In this document: positions 38,065-46,168 of the stretch, piece by piece | Position numbering within the stretch: position 1 is the stretch's first letter | Layout: each line of letters begins with the position of its first letter | Origin: Escherichia phage MRostami-2023e | Sequence record: OQ031495 | Reading direction: 5' to 3' (one strand) | Length of the DNA stretch: 64,000 nucleotides | The notes under the pieces: model-generated | What the model saw: only the letters and a program-made list of their open reading frames with translations | The model's database searches: none | What the model was told of the DNA's origin: nothing | Made by a program: the position numbers and the translations under genes

Positions 38065-38313
38065 ATGATTAAACAATTACAACACGCTCTTGAACTGCAA
38101 CGAAACGCATGGAATAACGGCCACGAAAACTATGGCGCATCTATTGATGTTGAAGCCGAAGCTCTTGAAATCCTGCGATATTTCAAACATCTGAACCCGG
38201 TACAGGCAGCTTTGGCTTCTGAACTGGAAGCAAAAGATGAACTGAAATATGCTAAGCCTTTGGCTTCTGCAGCTCGTAAAGCAGTACGTCATTTTGTTAT
38301 CACCCTTAAATAA
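38065..38313 (+). CDS. rIII: rIII lysis inhibition accessory protein
   Basis: 82 aa; MIKQLQHALELQRNAWNNGHENYGASIDVEAEALEILRYFKHLNP.. matches T4 RIII. Confidence 0.92.
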   Translation: MIKQLQHALELQRNAWNNGHENYGASIDVEAEALEILRYFKHLNPVQAALASELEAKDELKYAKPLASAARKAVRHFVITLK

Positions 38314-38582
38314 GTTNNNNNNNNNNNNNNNNNNNNNNNNNNNNNNNNNNNNNNNNNNNNNNNNNNNNNNNNNNNNNNNNCCCCGGCAGTTTTACGGTGT
38401 ACCTCTTGAATGTATTTTATACTATCACGCGTCAGAAAAAGGTTATCTGTCTAAGTCGTGGTTGGTATGATGACGAGGTTTATGGTTATCCTGTCGTTAA
38501 ATATCCAAAACCTATGTTCCCCTTGAGGGCTTGCGCAGGCAATGTCAATAAGTCCTGCATTTTCATTTAAAGAGAATTTATA

Positions 38583-39736: not shown

Positions 39737-40351
39737 ATGTTTAAAGTTAATACTTTTTATAAAATGAATTTTAAAAATGGGGATATTACTCCACGCCTTA
39801 AAAACATGTTCTCATATGATCTTATCGAGCCTTTTGAAGTTTTAGAAGTTACTGATGCTGGCTCGGTTTGTGAAATTAGAACGTCTGAAGGTAAAATTTA
39901 TCAGGCAGGTGTTGGTAAATTTAGTAATTGTTTTACTTTAATATTCTCGACTGATTTAGATGAGCATTTTATTGAATGTCCTAACCCTAAGGTCCATGAA
40001 GTTCCACATCAAGAAACTAAGAAAAACGGCCCACACGAATATACGAAGGTTGAAACTCCTCACGGCGTGATGTGGCGTCATAACTCTCCTTTTGGAAGTA
40101 AAGGAACATTTGCTCAACTGCCTAAACCTTATGACGATGAAAAATACATCGTCGCCTTTTTATCTGAACAGGGTACTCAAGACCGTGGATGTCAACGAAG
40201 TGGTTTACTAAGTGAACTTGAAGCTCATAACCAAGCACGTGAATTCGTTGAGAAAAATCCTGGCTCTGAAGCTCTAGTCATGAAAGCAATTACTCAATAT
40301 ATCACTGCTCAACCTGTTGTTCATCCGGTAGAAATTAATTTCATTAAGTAG
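39737..40351 (+). CDS. hypothetical protein
   Basis: 204-aa ORF. Confidence 0.55.
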   Translation: MFKVNTFYKMNFKNGDITPRLKNMFSYDLIEPFEVLEVTDAGSVCEIRTSEGKIYQAGVGKFSNCFTLIFSTDLDEHFIECPNPKVHEVPHQETKKNGPHEYTKVETPHGVMWRHNSPFGSKGTFAQLPKPYDDEKYIVAFLSEQGTQDRGCQRSGLLSELEAHNQAREFVEKNPGSEALVMKAITQYITAQPVVHPVEINFIK

Positions 40352-40381
40352 TTTACATCCAAGGACGGATTAGAGTATAAT
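40351..40381 (+). promoter_or_regulatory. early promoter
   Basis: gtttac 40351-40356; tagagtataat. Confidence 0.5.
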
Positions 40382-40405: not shown

Positions 40406-40603
40406 ATGAAATTTTTAATAGCACAAACAGTCCAATTAAAAGGTGTTGGAATTCCTGGGGTGATTTTTAAAGTTCTCCCTGAATTTAAAACCGCCGCTGG
40501 AATTATCAATGAAGCGTATGCTGTTCAATGGGTTGATTGGACTTCTGACATACGTATGGGTAAAGAGTTATCTCCTATTAAAGGGTTGAAACATGTTGAA
40601 TAA
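40406..40603 (+). CDS. hypothetical protein
   Basis: 65-aa ORF. Confidence 0.45.
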   Translation: MKFLIAQTVQLKGVGIPGVIFKVLPEFKTAAGIINEAYAVQWVDWTSDIRMGKELSPIKGLKHVE

Positions 40604-40788
40604 ATTAATCCAGAAATTGTTTGGTACGGAAATGATCGAAGTTACTTATCGTGTAACAGACTNNNNNNNNNNNNNNNNNNNNNNNGAACCATTCGTTTAG
40701 TCAATTAAAATGCCTAAAAATGACGGAAATTTATCTATCGAAGACCGTATACCTGGATACGGCCATTGGGCTGATGTTGAAATTATAA

Positions 40789-41256
40789 GTGTTAAAGATG
40801 TCTGAATTAGAAATAAGAAGTAATTTCAAGTGGCCGTCATGTGCATTAAGTAACTTTGCTCAATGGCCTTTTGTTATGGATGGTATTCAATTCGGAGGTC
40901 TTGAAGGGTTTCTCCAAGGATGTAAGGTGAAAAATGTTGAACAACAAAGACGTATATTTGGGTTGTCTGGATTGGCTGCACAGCAAGCTGGAAGGTCTTA
41001 TGCAAGAGCTCAGGACCGTGGGACCCTCTTCTGGTTAGGAGTTCCATTTTCAAGATACTCTGAAGCGTGGAAAGAATTATACACAAATGCATATTTTGAA
41101 GCCGCGATCCAAAATAAGGGATTTCGTGATGCCTTACAAGCCTCTAAAGGAAAAATTTTGAAGCACAGCATGGCTAGCCACCTAACAAAAGATGATACAA
41201 TACTAACTGAAGCTGAATTTATTGATGTGTTAAACCTATTAAGAGACTCTTTATGA
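40789..41256 (+). CDS. NADAR / YbiA-like (DUF1768) domain protein, putative ADP-ribose-processing enzyme
   Basis: 155 aa; LSNFAQWPF..DG..F...EGFLQGCK resembles the conserved N-terminal core of E. coli YbiA / NADAR family (recalled, not searched). Confidence 0.45.
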   Translation: MLKMSELEIRSNFKWPSCALSNFAQWPFVMDGIQFGGLEGFLQGCKVKNVEQQRRIFGLSGLAAQQAGRSYARAQDRGTLFWLGVPFSRYSEAWKELYTNAYFEAAIQNKGFRDALQASKGKILKHSMASHLTKDDTILTEAEFIDVLNLLRDSL

Positions 41257-42068
41257 AGCCTACTATTTTGACTGATATTGATGGTGTATGTTTAAGTTGG
41301 CAATCTGGACTTCCTTATTTTGCCCAAAAATATAATCTTCCATTAGAACATATTTTAAAAATGATTCAGGACGAAAAATTTATTTCTCCTGGTAAACTGT
41401 TCAATACAGACGATAACCTTGGTAAACAATTAATAGAAAAATATAATAGCTCTGATTTTATTCGTTACTTAGCGCCTTATTCAGATGCTCTTCGAGTTAT
41501 CAATAAACTAAAAGAAGACTATAATTTTGTAGCCGTGACGGCGCTAGGTGATTCAATTGATGCTCGATTGAATAGACAATTTAATTTGAATGCTTTGTTC
41601 CCAGGCGCTTTCTCTGAAGTAATGATGTGTGGTCATGATTCTTCAAAGGAACAATTATTTGAACTAGCTAAAACAAAATATAACGTGATTTGTTACGTTG
41701 ACGATTTAGCTCATCACTGTGACCATGCAGCAGAAATTCTTAATGTACCGATTTATTGGTTGGCTCGTGGTGAACGTGATGCCATTCCTCGTACTGCACA
41801 ACGTGTACACACGTGGGATGATATTGAATCTCGATTGGTTCCGCCAGAGCATAATTCAGATTCAGATCGTGAAGACCTTTTAAAACGATTGGCAGATTTG
41901 CTTAAAGAATCTGGTGCAACAAGTCCAGGTGCATGGCCTAATCAAATTGGCACTCCGTCGAATCCGTATACTTGGCGAACTCCAGGACCAACCGATATGC
42001 AGCCATGGTGGACGATTCAAAACTTTCCTTTAGATTCGTCTAAATGGACTTGGTCTATAAATTGTTAA
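41253..42068 (+). CDS. HAD-superfamily hydrolase, possibly 5'(3')-deoxyribonucleotidase-like
   Basis: 271 aa; N-terminal HAD motif I ILTDIDGV; ATGA overlap with the upstream NADAR-like gene. Confidence 0.5.
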   Translation: MKPTILTDIDGVCLSWQSGLPYFAQKYNLPLEHILKMIQDEKFISPGKLFNTDDNLGKQLIEKYNSSDFIRYLAPYSDALRVINKLKEDYNFVAVTALGDSIDARLNRQFNLNALFPGAFSEVMMCGHDSSKEQLFELAKTKYNVICYVDDLAHHCDHAAEILNVPIYWLARGERDAIPRTAQRVHTWDDIESRLVPPEHNSDSDREDLLKRLADLLKESGATSPGAWPNQIGTPSNPYTWRTPGPTDMQPWWTIQNFPLDSSKWTWSINC

Positions 42069-42077
42069 GGGCTAATT

Positions 42078-42347
42078 ATGTTTGTAGTTCATGATATTAC
42101 AGATGGCAAAAACACAACGCGTGACTACGGTCATGTTAACATGTTCTTTCGAGACTGGCCGGTGTTTCGTTCAGTAAAAGACGCAGAAATATTTAAAGAG
42201 TGTGTTGAACAAGGGTTCATCTACATTTCAGAATATTATGTTGAAGGACTCGGTAAATGGATTACCACTTATCAGAAAACGCTGAAATCGCTTCTAGATG
42301 AAGTGGCTTATAATAGAACCGTAACCAAAATCGAGGACATCAAATGA
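42078..42347 (+). CDS. hypothetical protein
   Basis: 89-aa ORF overlapping the ligase start. Confidence 0.5.
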   Translation: MFVVHDITDGKNTTRDYGHVNMFFRDWPVFRSVKDAEIFKECVEQGFIYISEYYVEGLGKWITTYQKTLKSLLDEVAYNRTVTKIEDIK

Positions 42348-43837
42348 TTTTAGATATTTTAAACCAAATAGCTGCGATCGGTTCTACTAAAACAAAACAG
42401 GAAATCCTTAAGAAAAATAAGGACAACAAATTACTTGAACGTGTATATCGTTTAACGTATGCACGTGGCATTCAGTATTATATTAAGAAATGGCCGGGGC
42501 CAGGTGAAAGGTCTCAAGCGTATGGCCTTCTTGAATTAGATGACATGTTGGATTTTATTGAGTTCACATTGGCCACTCGTAAACTCACTGGTAATGCAGC
42601 AATTAAAGAGCTCATGGGTTATATCGCCGACGGTAAACCTGATGATGTTGAAGTACTACGCCGTGTAATGATGCGAGACCTTGAAGTAGGTGCTTCAGTG
42701 TCTATCGCGAATAAGGTATGGCCTGGACTTATTCAATTGCAACCACAGATGTTAGCATCTGCATATGATGAGAAATTGATTACTAAAAATATTAAATGGC
42801 CTGCATTTGCCCAATTAAAGGCAGATGGTGCTCGTTGTTTCGCTGAAGTTCGCGATGATGGCGTTCAATTCTTTTCTCGTGCCGGTAACGAATACCATGG
42901 TCTTACTCTATTAGCAGATGAACTAATGGAAATGACTAAAGAAGCTCGCGAAAGACACCCTAATGGGGTTTTAATCGACGGTGAATTAGTTTATCATTCA
43001 TTTGATATTAAAAAGGCTGTGAGCTCAGGAAATGACCTGTCGTTCTTATTTGGTGATAATGAAGAATCCGAAGAAGTACAAGTTGCAGACCGTAGCACTT
43101 CAAATGGTTTAGCAAATAAATCTCTTCAAGGGACTATTTCTCCTAAAGAAGCGGAAGGTATGGTTCTTCAAGCCTGGGACTATGTTCCTTTAGATGAAGT
43201 CTATTCTGATGGCAAAATTAAAGGTCAGAAATACGATGTTCGTTTTACTGCTCTTGAAAATATGGCTGAAGGCTTTAAGCGAATTGAACCAATTGAAAAT
43301 CAGTTAGTTCGTAATCTTGACGAAGCTAAAGTGGTTTATAAAAAATATGTTGACCAAGGTCTTGAAGGTATTATCCTTAAAAACCGTGATTCATATTGGG
43401 AAAACAAACGCTCTAAGAATCTAATTAAATTTAAAGAAGTTATTGATATCGCTTTAGAAGTTGTAGGATACTATGAACACTCTAAAGATCCTAACAAATT
43501 AGGTGGTGTCGAACTCGTATCACGTTGTCGTCGTATTACAACCGATTGTGGTTCAGGTTTTAAAGATACAACTCATAAAACAGTTGACGGTGTAAAGGTT
43601 CTTATTCCTTTAGACGAGCGTCATGATTTAGACCGTGAACGATTAATGGCCGAAGCTCGTGAAGGTAAATTAATTGGACGTATCGCTGATTGTGAATGTA
43701 ATGGTTGGGTTCATTCTAAAGGCCGTGAAGGTACTGTAGGTATTTTCCTTCCAATTATTAAAGGGTTCCGTTTTGATAAAACAGAAGCGGATTCGTTTGA
43801 AGACGTATTTGGACCGTGGTCCCAGACAGGTTTATAA
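42344..43837 (+). CDS. 30: ATP-dependent DNA ligase gp30
   Basis: 497 aa; ..FAQLKADGARCFAEV.. (KxDG adenylation motif); matches T4 DNA ligase. Confidence 0.95.
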   Translation: MILDILNQIAAIGSTKTKQEILKKNKDNKLLERVYRLTYARGIQYYIKKWPGPGERSQAYGLLELDDMLDFIEFTLATRKLTGNAAIKELMGYIADGKPDDVEVLRRVMMRDLEVGASVSIANKVWPGLIQLQPQMLASAYDEKLITKNIKWPAFAQLKADGARCFAEVRDDGVQFFSRAGNEYHGLTLLADELMEMTKEARERHPNGVLIDGELVYHSFDIKKAVSSGNDLSFLFGDNEESEEVQVADRSTSNGLANKSLQGTISPKEAEGMVLQAWDYVPLDEVYSDGKIKGQKYDVRFTALENMAEGFKRIEPIENQLVRNLDEAKVVYKKYVDQGLEGIILKNRDSYWENKRSKNLIKFKEVIDIALEVVGYYEHSKDPNKLGGVELVSRCRRITTDCGSGFKDTTHKTVDGVKVLIPLDERHDLDRERLMAEAREGKLIGRIADCECNGWVHSKGREGTVGIFLPIIKGFRFDKTEADSFEDVFGPWSQTGL

Positions 43838-44080: not shown

Positions 44081-46168
44081 ATGTCTGAACAATTAAATGA
44101 AGTGTTTGAATCTGAAGGCAGTCTTCCTGTCGTCAATTTGAACCCTAAAGCTAAAGTTCCACAAGTCTGGAAAATTGGTGATATCGATACAAATATTGTA
44201 GTTCGTTTATTCTCTTACCTTTCCGAAGGCGACGCTGTAAAACAAGTTAAACTTGGCGACAAATACGCTCATGTTGTTATTATGAGTCTGTCTGAAAAGG
44301 GTAATCTCGCTGAATTGAAAAATGGCCTTGGTCCTGCTCCTATTGATGCAATCAACACCATTTTCAATACAGTATATGAACAAGTTAAAGCTCTTCGTAT
44401 GGATGCCGTTCTGTTTCGATTCCCTACCAAGAAATTGAAAGGACGTGGACAACAGCTTCAAACTCTTCTTGCTCGTTTAGTTTCTACTAAAACCGGTGGT
44501 CGTTTTAAAGTATTGTCGGCAATGTATCAATTCACAGGTAAACACACCTATGTGATGATGGTTCGTAAAAATGCCAACATTGAAGATATTAAAGGCATCC
44601 CTAACATTAACACAGAGTTGTATACGAAAGTAGATTCTGATGTTGGCGAAGTTTATGTGAGTAAAAAGACCGGCGAAACGGTCACCAAAGAAACGGCTAT
44701 CGCTGGTTCTATTGCTGCTGTAGAAGAAAAACGTAAAGATAAGCCTGTTATTGCTCGTACTAAAATTTCTCGTCGTGCTATTGCGGCAAGTCAATCTTTA
44801 GAAGCTGACCGCCAAGAAGGTGAGTTATTCCAGAAATACGAAAATTCTGCTAAAGAAGTTAGCGGCCCAGCTACAGCCGAATTACTTCCTGAAGCATATG
44901 AAATCGTACTAGCCCAAGCATCGTCCACAGCAAAAGGCACTTTAGTTGCTGATATCGAAAATAAGATTTATAATCGTATTGATGAATCCTTTAGATTTGC
45001 TGATGAAGTTTCTTATGGTAGTGTTATTAAGCCAACTTTAGAAAAGTTTGCTAAGAAAATTAAAACTGAAAAAACAACATCTGTTAAAGCATTAGCTGCT
45101 TTTGTTGAAGCTGCAAACGAAATTGCAGACTCTATTAAAGACGAATGGTTTGAAGATTTTAGACGTGATAATTTCCAACTGGCCGACGATGTTTTAGCTG
45201 AAGTATCTGAAAAAACTTGGAAACAACGTAAATCAGCGTTCTTGTCTAATGTGATGTATACTTATGCACGAGAATCGGCTAGAGGCACCTTTAATATAAC
45301 AATGAATCGGGACCCTAAACAATACTCTGTTGCTGAAAAACGAGCTATTCGTGAATATGCCTCTTCTGCGTATACCGATATCAATAATATGTTGTTAGGT
45401 CGTTATAAACCAGATTTTTACGATGTTGCGGATGAAGATGAAGTTAAACGCGCTATTGATGGTCTTGATTCAGCGTTTTTAAATGGAGACCGTTTACCTG
45501 AAGGACTAACGTTATATAGAGCTCAGTCTATCAGAATGCCTATTTACGAAGCAATGGTTAAAAATAAGGTATTCTACTTCAGAAACTATGTTTCCACTTC
45601 ACTAGCTCCTATTATTTTCGGTGGGTTTAAAGAGAACGTTGCCCTTGGACTTGCTCCTGAAGAAGTTCGCAAAGAGCTTAACATTGACAATAATGATGAA
45701 GGTGTTACTATTTCTCCTAGTCAAGTAAGAACAGCTATGCATGCGCCAGAACAAATCCGTGTTAACGTTGGATGGGCTATTGATGGCGCCCATAAAGTTA
45801 ACGTGATTTATCCGGGACAGTTGAGTAATCACCCTAATGAGCAAGAAATTATTTTGCCTAGAGGCATTCTCTTACAGATAAATAAAATTACAGATGCGTC
45901 ATCTGACACTGGTGCGGGTTTAGAATCCAACCTTAAATTTATTCAAGCTGAAGTCATGTCCTCGGACCAGTTGGACGAAGCTGTCATTTATGATGGTGAT
46001 GTTCTCATGGAAACAGGCGAGGTGGTTGCTATGACGGGTGAAATCGAATCAGATGAGCCGGTATCGTTCTCTTCATTTGTAGAAAAAACTAGTGCACCTA
46101 AAGGATTGAAATTGTTAGCATCTTTAATGGATTTAGAATCAGTTCCGTTTAAATTTGTCCAAGGATAG
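44081..46168 (+). CDS. alt: Alt-like ADP-ribosyltransferase (virion-packaged, modifies host RNA polymerase)
   Basis: 695 aa; position next to gene 30 as in T4; C-terminal ART signature R..STS..EQE (LYRAQ, NYVSTSLAP, NEQEIILPRG). Confidence 0.8.
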   Translation: MSEQLNEVFESEGSLPVVNLNPKAKVPQVWKIGDIDTNIVVRLFSYLSEGDAVKQVKLGDKYAHVVIMSLSEKGNLAELKNGLGPAPIDAINTIFNTVYEQVKALRMDAVLFRFPTKKLKGRGQQLQTLLARLVSTKTGGRFKVLSAMYQFTGKHTYVMMVRKNANIEDIKGIPNINTELYTKVDSDVGEVYVSKKTGETVTKETAIAGSIAAVEEKRKDKPVIARTKISRRAIAASQSLEADRQEGELFQKYENSAKEVSGPATAELLPEAYEIVLAQASSTAKGTLVADIENKIYNRIDESFRFADEVSYGSVIKPTLEKFAKKIKTEKTTSVKALAAFVEAANEIADSIKDEWFEDFRRDNFQLADDVLAEVSEKTWKQRKSAFLSNVMYTYARESARGTFNITMNRDPKQYSVAEKRAIREYASSAYTDINNMLLGRYKPDFYDVADEDEVKRAIDGLDSAFLNGDRLPEGLTLYRAQSIRMPIYEAMVKNKVFYFRNYVSTSLAPIIFGGFKENVALGLAPEEVRKELNIDNNDEGVTISPSQVRTAMHAPEQIRVNVGWAIDGAHKVNVIYPGQLSNHPNEQEIILPRGILLQINKITDASSDTGAGLESNLKFIQAEVMSSDQLDEAVIYDGDVLMETGEVVAMTGEIESDEPVSFSSFVEKTSAPKGLKLLASLMDLESVPFKFVQG

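What the first reader, a model, noticed from the sequence alone, without database searches (positions are those of the whole stretch)
40789..42068. NADAR-like gene translationally coupled to a HAD-family hydrolase, just upstream of DNA ligase and near alt
ORF 40789-41256 has an N-terminal core (LSNFAQWPF..DG..EGFLQGCK) that resembles the YbiA/NADAR (DUF1768) family, members of which process ADP-ribose-linked substrates and have been reported to reverse DarT-type guanine ADP-ribosylation of DNA. It overlaps by ATGA a 271-aa ORF with the HAD motif ILTDIDGV and a long C-terminal extension. The pair lies 300 bp upstream of DNA ligase and 2 kb from the ADP-ribosyltransferase Alt. Together this could be a DNA ADP-ribosylation reversal or anti-defence module, or a nucleotide-pool module. 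The NADAR assignment is from recalled motifs and needs confirmation.
Basis: partly seen in the sequence, partly recalled or inferred. Interest (0 to 1): 0.65.

Follow-up and report, generated by a model that had tools for sequence, protein, structure and literature searches.

The report
Known anti-DarT NADAR gene plus phosphatase
The first gene is the T4-type phage enzyme AdfN (gp30.3), already shown by others to strip ADP-ribose off phage DNA and defeat the bacterial DarTG1 defence, and the gene overlapping it is an uncharacterised nucleotidase-like phosphatase that published transposon data show is not needed for that job, so the finding is correct but ordinary.

Summary
The window comes from a T4-like coliphage of the RB69 type, 99.8% identical to phage vB_EQ1.

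**ORF 1 is gene 30.3.** It gives a full-length Pfam Phage_30_3 match (E=2e-69) and is 147/152 identical to T4 gp30.3. That protein is AdfN, the published "anti-DarT factor NADAR". The true start is ATG 40798, not GTG 40789. The model has a NADAR fold; its only credible PDB matches are YbiA, PnNADAR and the G. lovleyi NADAR that the AdfN paper calls DarG1. The catalytic residues E36 and K43, the phage-type H123 and the C-terminal helix that RB69 lost by frameshift are all present.

**ORF 2 is gp30.2.** It is a capped HAD phosphatase whose four catalytic motifs are conserved. Its distant relatives fall in the NT5C 5'(3')-deoxyribonucleotidase family. Its substrate is unknown.

**The "module" idea is not supported.**
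- In published T4 transposon sequencing on a DarTG1 host, 30.3 drops by log2 -7.25. 30.2 (-0.12) and alt (-0.01) are unaffected.
- Start/stop overlaps occur at nearly every junction of this gene cluster.
- The 30.3-30.2 junction is confined to close T-even relatives, whereas 30.2 sits just upstream of DNA ligase in about 90% of loci.

Verdict: already known, low interest.

The parts
40798..41256 (+). Gene 30.3 = adfN (152 aa), an orphan NADAR-family DNA ADP-ribosylglycohydrolase. Catalytic E36 and K43, phage-type H123, C-terminal helix 138-151 intact.
   Evidence: Pfam PF08010 E=1.9e-69. 147/152 identical to T4 gp30.3. AF2 pLDDT 93.5. Foldseek top three PDB hits are 2b3w, 8bau and 8bat, all NADARs. 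E36, K43 and H123 are invariant in 52 homologs. Function is published.
41253..42068 (+). Gene 30.2 (271 aa). HAD-superfamily phosphatase core with a helical C1 cap (residues 1-195), then a helix (202-219) and a disordered Trp/Pro-rich tail (about 225-271).
41253..41256 (+). ATGA start/stop overlap of 30.3 and 30.2. An AAGAG Shine-Dalgarno-like element lies 7 nt upstream of the ATG, inside 30.3.
   Evidence: Read directly from the sequence. The same junction occurs in T4. In RB69 a T insertion in 30.3 shifts the frame to an early stop, leaving a 42-nt gap before 30.2.
40593..40805 (+). Gene 30.4 homolog, overlapping adfN by 8 nt (ATGTCTGA). In the window it is interrupted by an N-mask (40663-40685) and carries an in-frame TAG at 40698-40700.
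   Evidence: The T4, RB69 and vB_EQ1 annotations agree. T4 30.4 insertions are mildly depleted on DarTG1 (log2FC -1.79, adj p 0.014), probably through polarity on 30.3.
42078..42347 (+). Gene 30.1 (DUF3045, 89 aa). It fills the gap between 30.2 and ligase and overlaps ligase by ATGA.
   Evidence: Pfam PF11243 E=1.1e-26.
42344..43837 (+). Gene 30, ATP-dependent DNA ligase. It is the neighbour of 30.2 that is conserved most widely.
   Evidence: Pfam DNA_ligase_A_M E=3.2e-26 and phrog_114 E=1e-154. Ligase lies within 700 nt downstream of the 30.2 match in 64 of 72 loci.
44081..46168 (+). alt, the Alt-like RNA polymerase ADP-ribosyltransferase (context only).
   Evidence: Pfam ADPrib_exo_Tox E=6e-28 and phrog_802 E=2e-261. 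T4 alt insertions have no DarTG1 phenotype.

Best explanation
These are two independent early genes of a T4-like (RB69-type) coliphage. They sit side by side because of the compact, inherited T-even gene order 30.4-30.3-30.2-30.1-30(ligase)-alt.1-alt.

**Gene 30.3 is AdfN.** It is an orphan NADAR-family glycohydrolase. During infection it removes the ADP-ribose that the host DarT1 toxin attaches to guanine in phage DNA, and this restores replication on DarTG1 hosts. That mechanism was shown experimentally for the 97%-identical T4 protein. For this allele it is inferred from identity, fold, intact catalytic residues and an intact C-terminal helix. The phage is therefore predicted to resist DarTG1, unlike its relative RB69, whose allele is frameshifted.

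**Gene 30.2 is a Mg-dependent HAD phosphatase with a helical cap.** It is most like the 5'(3')-(deoxy)ribonucleotidases, so it probably dephosphorylates a nucleoside monophosphate or a similar small phospho-ester. That activity is inferred, and the substrate is unknown. It is not needed for AdfN's anti-DarTG1 function. Its evolutionarily stable neighbour is DNA ligase, not the NADAR.
For: **AdfN**
- Full-length Pfam Phage_30_3 match, E=1.9e-69.
- 147/152 identity to T4 gp30.3.
- The family profile hits E. coli YbiA over the catalytic motif, E=9.8e-4.
- AF2 model with pLDDT 93.5. Its only credible PDB matches are the three NADAR structures 2b3w, 8bau and 8bat.
- E36, K43 and H123 are invariant in 52 homologs. 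E36 and K43 are the residues mutated in the AdfN paper. His is the published hallmark of phage NADARs.
- The window lacks RB69's T insertion.
- Published function: ADP-ribose removal from DNA in vitro and DarTG1 counter-defence. T4 transposon sequencing gives log2FC -7.25 on DarTG1.

**gp30.2**
- HAD motifs I-IV: D8, D10, K132 and D150-D151 are invariant, and T96 is at least 90% conserved.
- High-confidence core model.
- 24 of 58 distant relatives match Pfam NT5C.
- The widened profile hits the 3bwv deoxyribonucleotidase-like protein over its full length, E=2.1e-5.

**Independence of the two genes**
- 30.2 insertions are neutral on DarTG1 (-0.12, p=0.61), on K-12 (72/72 TA sites hit) and in M9 medium (-0.10).
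- 30.3 abuts 30.2 in 15 of 72 loci, whereas ligase is within 700 nt in 64 of 72.
- Most 30.3 loci at or below 45% identity have no 30.2 within 5 kb.
Against: - AdfN-T4 works fully only during T-even infection, and the reason is unknown. An unidentified phage cofactor therefore remains possible. Redundancy could hide a contribution from gp30.2 in a transposon pool.
- This allele has five substitutions relative to T4 and has not been assayed.
- For gp30.2, the direct Pfam hits are sub-threshold (HAD_2 16 bits against a cut-off of 23.8) and there is no direct NT5C hit.
- No phenotype is known for 30.2 under any condition examined.
- The T4 tests used T4's 30.2, which is only 70% identical to this RB69-type allele.
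Confidence: 0.85

Rival explanations
1. The pair is a two-enzyme anti-DarT or ADP-ribose-disposal module. AdfN releases ADP-ribose from DNA, and gp30.2 either processes the released product or is the missing T-even cofactor that AdfN needs in vivo.
For: - The ATGA overlap is conserved in T4-type and RB69-type phages.
- AdfN-T4 is fully active only during T-even infection, and the authors propose an additional phage factor.
- RB69, which is rescued by ectopic AdfN, carries an intact 30.2.
- Both genes occur in about 1,450-1,500 phage records with the same genus distribution.
Against: - T4 30.2 insertions (71 sites) are not depleted on a DarTG1 host (log2FC -0.12, p=0.61), whereas 30.3 insertions are lost (-7.25).
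- Adjacency breaks down outside close T-even relatives.
- Overlaps are generic in this cluster.
- By general knowledge of the superfamily, HAD phosphatases cleave phospho-monoesters, not the pyrophosphate diester of ADP-ribose.
Confidence: 0.06
2. gp30.2 is a DNA-end-healing 3'-phosphatase, or another accessory enzyme that works with DNA ligase.
For: - The 30.2-(30.1)-ligase order is kept in 64-68 of 72 loci across Escherichia-, Klebsiella-, Acinetobacter- and Aeromonas-type T4-like phages.
- One distant relative hits Pfam HAD_PNKP weakly.
Against: - gp30.2 has a helical cap of about 65 residues inserted after motif I. From general knowledge of HAD enzymes, this is typical of small-molecule phosphatases, whereas DNA-end phosphatases lack a cap.
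- The best sequence links are to NT5C nucleotidases.
- T4 already encodes PseT.
- Synteny in T4-like genomes can persist by descent alone.
- 30.2 is dispensable in the conditions checked, whereas ligase is essential.
Confidence: 0.08
3. The NADAR here acts mainly on soluble ADP-ribose derivatives or riboflavin-pathway intermediates, like YbiA, rather than on DNA.
For: - The best structural match is E. coli YbiA.
- A 2022 survey proposed that phage NADARs mostly target low-molecular-weight ADP-ribose derivatives.
Against: - Later experiments showed guanine-ADP-ribose DNA hydrolysis by T4 gp30.3 in vitro, and a DarTG1-specific requirement in vivo.
- This allele is 97% identical to the tested protein.
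Confidence: 0.03

Closest known systems
AdfN-T4 (T4 gp30.3, anti-DarT factor NADAR; Johannesman et al. 2025, PMC11825919)
   Same: 147/152 residues are identical. Length, E36, K43, the C-terminal helix, genomic position and the overlap with 30.2 all match.
   Different: Five substitutions (K11R, E89P, I120V, M125I, H128G relative to T4). The host genome is RB69-like rather than T4-like. This allele has not been assayed.
RB69 gp30.3 (naturally truncated AdfN)
   Same: Same genomic background. Flanking genes are 97-98% identical at nucleotide level.
   Different: RB69 has a T insertion that truncates the last 15 residues and makes it DarTG1-sensitive. The window lacks the insertion.
DarG1 NADAR antitoxin (Geobacter lovleyi, PDB 8bat) and PnNADAR (8bau)
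   Same: Same fold (Foldseek probability 0.98-0.99). Per the literature, the same reaction on guanine-ADP-ribose.
   Different: About 16% identity. The phage gene is an orphan with no DarT partner. It has His in the last strand in place of Asp or Glu. AdfN-T4 does not act as an antitoxin in uninfected cells.
E. coli YbiA (PDB 2b3w; Pfam NADAR/DUF1768)
   Same: Best structural match (E=1.6e-4, TM 0.67) and best profile match over the SNF...E..Q..K motif.
   Different: 19% identity. The window protein gives no direct PF08719 hit. YbiA belongs to a different subfamily, with a catalytic Glu, and has a different physiological role.
NT5C-type 5'(3')-deoxyribonucleotidases (human/mouse cdN and mdN; S. 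epidermidis 3bwv) - for gp30.2
   Different: The window protein itself has no NT5C Pfam hit. Identity is at most 19%. It carries a C-terminal extension of about 76 residues that these enzymes lack. Substrate is untested.
T4 Pnkp (PseT) 3'-phosphatase domain - for gp30.2
   Different: By general knowledge of this enzyme, Pnkp lacks a cap and acts on nucleic-acid ends, whereas gp30.2 has a large cap. Identity is 11-13%.

Membership tests
Phage NADAR / AdfN (Pfam Phage_30_3, PF08010) | Full-length match to the family HMM above its gathering score | tested here: met
   232.2 bits against a cut-off of 36, E=1.9e-69, profile positions 1-138 of 138.
Phage NADAR / AdfN | Catalytic Glu and Lys (E36, K43 in AdfN-T4) and the phage-specific His in the last strand | tested here: met
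   E36, K43 and H123 are invariant in 52 homologs. Numbering matches T4 when the start is ATG 40798.
Phage NADAR / AdfN | Intact C-terminal helix (missing in the inactive RB69 allele) | tested here: met
   Helix 138-151 is present in the model. There is no T insertion relative to RB69.
Phage NADAR / AdfN | Removes ADP-ribose from guanine in DNA and confers DarTG1 resistance | not testable with these tools
   Shown for the 97%-identical T4 protein only.
NADAR superfamily (YbiA/DUF1768, PF08719) | NADAR alpha+beta fold | tested here: met
   The top three Foldseek PDB hits are the NADAR structures 2b3w, 8bau and 8bat. The next hit has E>4.
NADAR superfamily (YbiA/DUF1768, PF08719) | Direct match to the Pfam NADAR HMM | tested here: not met
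   No PF08719 hit at E<=1 for the window protein. The link is indirect: the family profile hits YbiA at E=9.8e-4, and one homolog (P0082) carries both PF08010 and PF08719.
HAD superfamily phosphatases | Motif I DxDx(T/V), with the nucleophile Asp and the Asp+2 general acid/base | tested here: met
   D8-I-D10-G-V. D8 and D10 are invariant in 56 close homologs and in 59 distant ones.
HAD superfamily phosphatases | Motif II Thr/Ser, motif III Lys, motif IV DD | tested here: met
   T96 is at least 90% conserved. K132, D150 and D151 are invariant in close homologs. K132 is invariant and T96 and D151 are at least 90% conserved in distant ones.
HAD superfamily phosphatases | Rossmann-like HAD core fold with a cap | tested here: met
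HAD superfamily phosphatases | Pfam HAD model above its gathering score | tested here: not met
   HAD_2 scores 16.0 bits against a cut-off of 23.8, E=0.013.
NT5C 5'(3')-deoxyribonucleotidase family (PF06941) | Match to the NT5C HMM | tested here: inconclusive
   The window protein has no hit. However, 24 of 58 relatives retrieved by the gp30.2 profile hit NT5C, best E=4.2e-10. The widened profile hits 3bwv at E=2.1e-5 and mdN/cdN at E about 0.01.
NT5C 5'(3')-deoxyribonucleotidase family (PF06941) | Hydrolysis of 5'- or 3'-(d)NMPs | not testable with these tools
   No biochemical data on gp30.2 were found in the held literature.
Functional AdfN+gp30.2 operon/module | Both genes are required for the same phenotype | tested here: not met
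   Published T4 transposon sequencing on DarTG1: 30.3 -7.25, 30.2 -0.12.
Functional AdfN+gp30.2 operon/module | Adjacency is conserved across distant relatives | tested here: not met
   30.3 lies within 60 nt of 30.2 in 15 of 72 loci and within 5 kb in 36 of 72. Ligase lies within 5 kb in 68 of 72. Most distant 30.3 loci lack 30.2 nearby.

The most novel reading that the evidence does not exclude
gp30.2 could be a nucleotide phosphatase functionally tied to the phage DNA ligase. It could instead target a defence-derived nucleotide. The 30.2-(30.1)-ligase block is kept in about 90% of T4-like loci, while the NADAR comes and goes. The variable Trp/Pro-rich tail might dock the enzyme onto a partner. 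Such a role would be invisible under laboratory conditions and has not been described.
Probability: 0.12. Interest if true: 0.45.

Novelty: already known. Interest (0 to 1): 0.12.

Why it matters
That idea is correct, but it was published between 2023 and 2025 as AdfN, so the finding adds no new biology.

Three things are added here:
- The annotation of this window is corrected.
- This RB69-like phage carries an intact adfN, unlike RB69, and is therefore predicted to resist DarTG1.
- The neighbouring HAD gene is not part of the anti-DarT mechanism. It is an uncharacterised NT5C-like phosphatase, widespread in T4-like phages, whose stable partner is DNA ligase.

The last point is a modest lead for anyone working on functions of unassigned T4 genes.

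Tried and rejected
- **Sequence searches of both proteins against PDB chains.** Nothing was found for gp30.3, and only E=0.11 to a deoxyribonucleotidase for gp30.2. Profiles and structure models were needed.
- **NCBIfam.** No useful hit.
- **gp30.2 as the missing T-even cofactor of AdfN.** Considered because of the paper's remark. Rejected on the T4 transposon-sequencing tables.
- **A nutrient-dependent phenotype for 30.2.** Checked in the LB versus M9 table and none was found (-0.10).
- **Domain fusions that might reveal the function of gp30.2.** The longer relatives (P0264, P0300, P0252, P0208) gave no extra Pfam domains.
- **Literature on gp30.2.** No hit for 'gp30.2', and nothing specific under deoxyribonucleotidase + bacteriophage + HAD.
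- **Promoter and terminator scan.** It showed no enrichment over shuffles and no terminator between 30.3 and 30.2. It is therefore used only descriptively.
- **A mosaic origin (T4-like 30.3 beside RB69-like 30.2).** Considered, then rejected. RB69's own 30.3 is equally T4-like, so 30.3 is simply far more conserved than its neighbours.

Full report
**What is in the sequence**

ORF listing and direct reading confirm both ORFs and their ATGA overlap at 41253-41256. A 2-kb stretch around them is 99.8% identical to Escherichia phage vB_EQ1 and 96-98% identical to many RB69-like coliphages. The window is therefore from a T4-like (Straboviridae) phage.

Pfam and PHROGs identify the local genes as the T4 cluster 30.3, 30.2, 30.1, 30 and alt:
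- 30.3: PF08010, E=1.9e-69
- 30.2: phrog_420, E=8.4e-78
- 30.1: DUF3045
- 30: ATP-dependent DNA ligase
- alt

The annotated T4, RB69 and vB_EQ1 records show the same order.

**Corrections to the observation**

- The annotated start of 30.3 in all three reference phages corresponds to ATG 40798 (152 aa), not GTG 40789. With that start, the published catalytic residues fall at E36 and K43.
- Upstream gene 30.4 (40593-40805) overlaps 30.3 by 8 nt.
- The '300 bp' between 30.2 and ligase is gene 30.1, which overlaps ligase by ATGA.
- In T4, seven consecutive junctions from 30.6 to alt.1 abut or overlap. The overlap is a property of the cluster, not of this pair.

**Gene 30.3 is AdfN**

The protein is 147/152 identical to T4 gp30.3.

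Published work on the T4 protein:
- Johannesman et al. (Nat Commun 2025, PMC11825919) renamed it AdfN, "anti-DarT factor NADAR". It is necessary for T4 and sufficient for RB69 to overcome DarTG1. E36A and K43A impair it. It removes ADP-ribose from DarT1-modified DNA in vitro. RB69 is sensitive because a T insertion truncates the last 15 residues.
- Its in-vitro guanine-ADP-ribose hydrolase activity was also reported in Toxins 2024 (PMC11125620). That paper notes a His in the last strand as the mark of phage NADARs.
- A T4 transposon-sequencing study (bioRxiv 10.1101/2025.11.20.689424) found 30.3 insertions lost on a DarTG1 host.

Independent checks made here:
- A profile of 52 homologs hits E. 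coli YbiA over the catalytic motif (E=9.8e-4).
- The AlphaFold model is confident (pLDDT 93.5).
- Its only credible PDB matches are the three NADAR structures 2b3w, 8bau and 8bat.
- E36, K43 and H123 are invariant.
- The C-terminal helix 138-151 is present, and the RB69 insertion is absent.

**Gene 30.2 is a capped HAD phosphatase**

Direct HMM evidence is weak. HAD_2 scores 16 bits, below its threshold, and there is no NT5C hit. Other evidence is stronger:
- In 56 homologs the residues of the four HAD motifs are conserved: D8 and D10 (motif I), K132 (III) and D150-D151 (IV) are invariant, and T96 (II) is at least 90% conserved.
- The model has a high-confidence core covering residues 1-220, with a helical cap after motif I and a disordered tail.

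For the subfamily, a full-library search with the family profile found 1,089 representatives at E<=1e-3, mostly proteins of 190-220 aa. Of 58 distant relatives, 24 match Pfam NT5C, best E=4.2e-10. The widened profile matches the S. epidermidis deoxyribonucleotidase-like protein 3bwv over its full length (E=2.1e-5), and mdN/cdN at E about 0.01.

The most likely activity is therefore dephosphorylation of a nucleoside monophosphate. This is an inference, and no biochemical study was found.

The extension of about 76 residues is variable and is absent from many Acinetobacter, Aeromonas and Shewanella phage homologs.

**Is the pair a module?**

Three lines of evidence say no.

1. *Genetics.* T4 transposon sequencing on a DarTG1 host:

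| Gene | log2FC | Statistic |
|---|---|---|
| 30.3 | -7.25 | adj p 0 |
| 30.4 | -1.79 | adj p 0.014 |
| 30.2 | -0.12 | p 0.61, 71 sites |
| 30.1 | -0.01 | |
| alt | -0.01 | |

The mild 30.4 effect is probably polarity on 30.3. Gene 30.2 is also non-essential on K-12 (72/72 TA sites hit) and neutral in M9 medium.

2. *Synteny.* Among 72 IMG/VR loci carrying a 30.2 homolog with at least 3 kb on both sides:
   - DNA ligase lies within 5 kb downstream in 68, and within 700 nt in 64.
   - 30.3 lies within 5 kb upstream in 36, and abuts 30.2 in only 15.

   From the 30.3 side, nearly all loci at or below 45% identity lack 30.2 within 5 kb.

3. *Overlaps.* Start/stop overlaps are generic in this cluster.

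Both genes occur in about 1,450-1,500 phage genomes with the same genus distribution. This fits two widespread T4-family genes, not a linked pair.

One open point remains. AdfN-T4 is fully active only in T-even infections, and the missing factor is unidentified. The transposon data argue that it is not gp30.2, at least in T4.

**Verdict**

It is not supported for the proposed module or for any role of ligase or Alt proximity.

What remains new is small:
- an intact adfN in an RB69-type genome, which predicts DarTG1 resistance;
- a transitive NT5C-like assignment for gp30.2;
- a conserved 30.2-ligase linkage.

Noticed in passing
window 40686-40700 (gene 30.4, just after the N-mask at 40663-40685): The window has three substitutions within 10 nt relative to vB_EQ1 and RB69 (GAACCATTCGTTTAG versus GAACCATACGTTACG). 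One of them creates an in-frame TAG at 40698-40700 in gene 30.4. The N-run is also 6 nt shorter than the homologous stretch. No record among 50,697 phage genomes matches these 60 nt exactly over the full length; the best is 95%. It could be a real amber or pseudogene variant or an artefact next to the mask. If real, it could affect translational coupling into adfN.
   Followed up: partly
window 41253-43837; loci L083-L159: The 30.2 HAD gene is followed by DNA ligase within 700 nt in 64 of 72 loci and within 5 kb in 68 of 72, across diverse T4-like phages. This is far more conserved than its adjacency to the NADAR. It may be a functional link or simply inherited synteny.
   Followed up: partly
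window 40798-41256 versus L001 (T4) and L002 (RB69): adfN is an island of high conservation. Nucleotide identity between the window and T4 is 89.5% in 30.3, but only 59-71% in 30.4, 30.2, 30.1 and ligase. This suggests strong purifying selection or recent exchange of adfN between Tequatrovirus and RB69-like phages.
   Followed up: partly
window 41840-42068 (gp30.2 residues ~196-271): The C-terminal tails of gp30.2 homologs are highly variable. They consist of an amphipathic helix followed by a Pro/Trp/Tyr-rich disordered stretch. Many, including T4-type and Klebsiella-phage types, end in a G(T)GIEY(L/W)xxQPT-like motif. The window/RB69 type lacks that motif and has PYTWRTPGPTDMQPWW instead.
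   Followed up: no
window 40934-41160 (+ strand, alternative frame inside 30.3): T4's annotated internal gene 30.3' (L001 3637-3864) has no + strand ORF of 40 aa or more as a counterpart in this window. This argues against 30.3' being a conserved gene.
   Followed up: no
window 39737-40351: A 204-aa ORF of unknown function (phrog_17531, E=1.8e-146) sits where T4 and RB69 carry gene 30.6.
   Followed up: no
T4 gene 30.4 (homolog of window 40593-40805): In the published T4 transposon data, insertions in 30.4 are mildly depleted on DarTG1 (log2FC -1.79, adj p 0.014). This fits polarity or translational coupling onto the overlapping adfN start.
   Followed up: no
proteins P0264 (591 aa), P0300 (660 aa), P0208 (430 aa), P0252 (365 aa): Some distant gp30.2-like HAD domains are fused to long N- or C-terminal regions that have no Pfam match.
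   Followed up: partly
window 40352-40381: The best sigma-70-like promoter match in the region (TTTACA-18-TATAAT, 11/12) lies just upstream of the 30.5-like ORF at 40406. It could drive the 30.5-30.4-adfN-30.2-30.1-ligase run. No terminator-like site lies between 30.3 and 30.2.
   Followed up: no
window 40663-40685, and within ORF 38249-38470: Runs of N (masked bases) interrupt the sequence. The first hides part of gene 30.4, which kept that gene out of the ORF list.
   Followed up: partly
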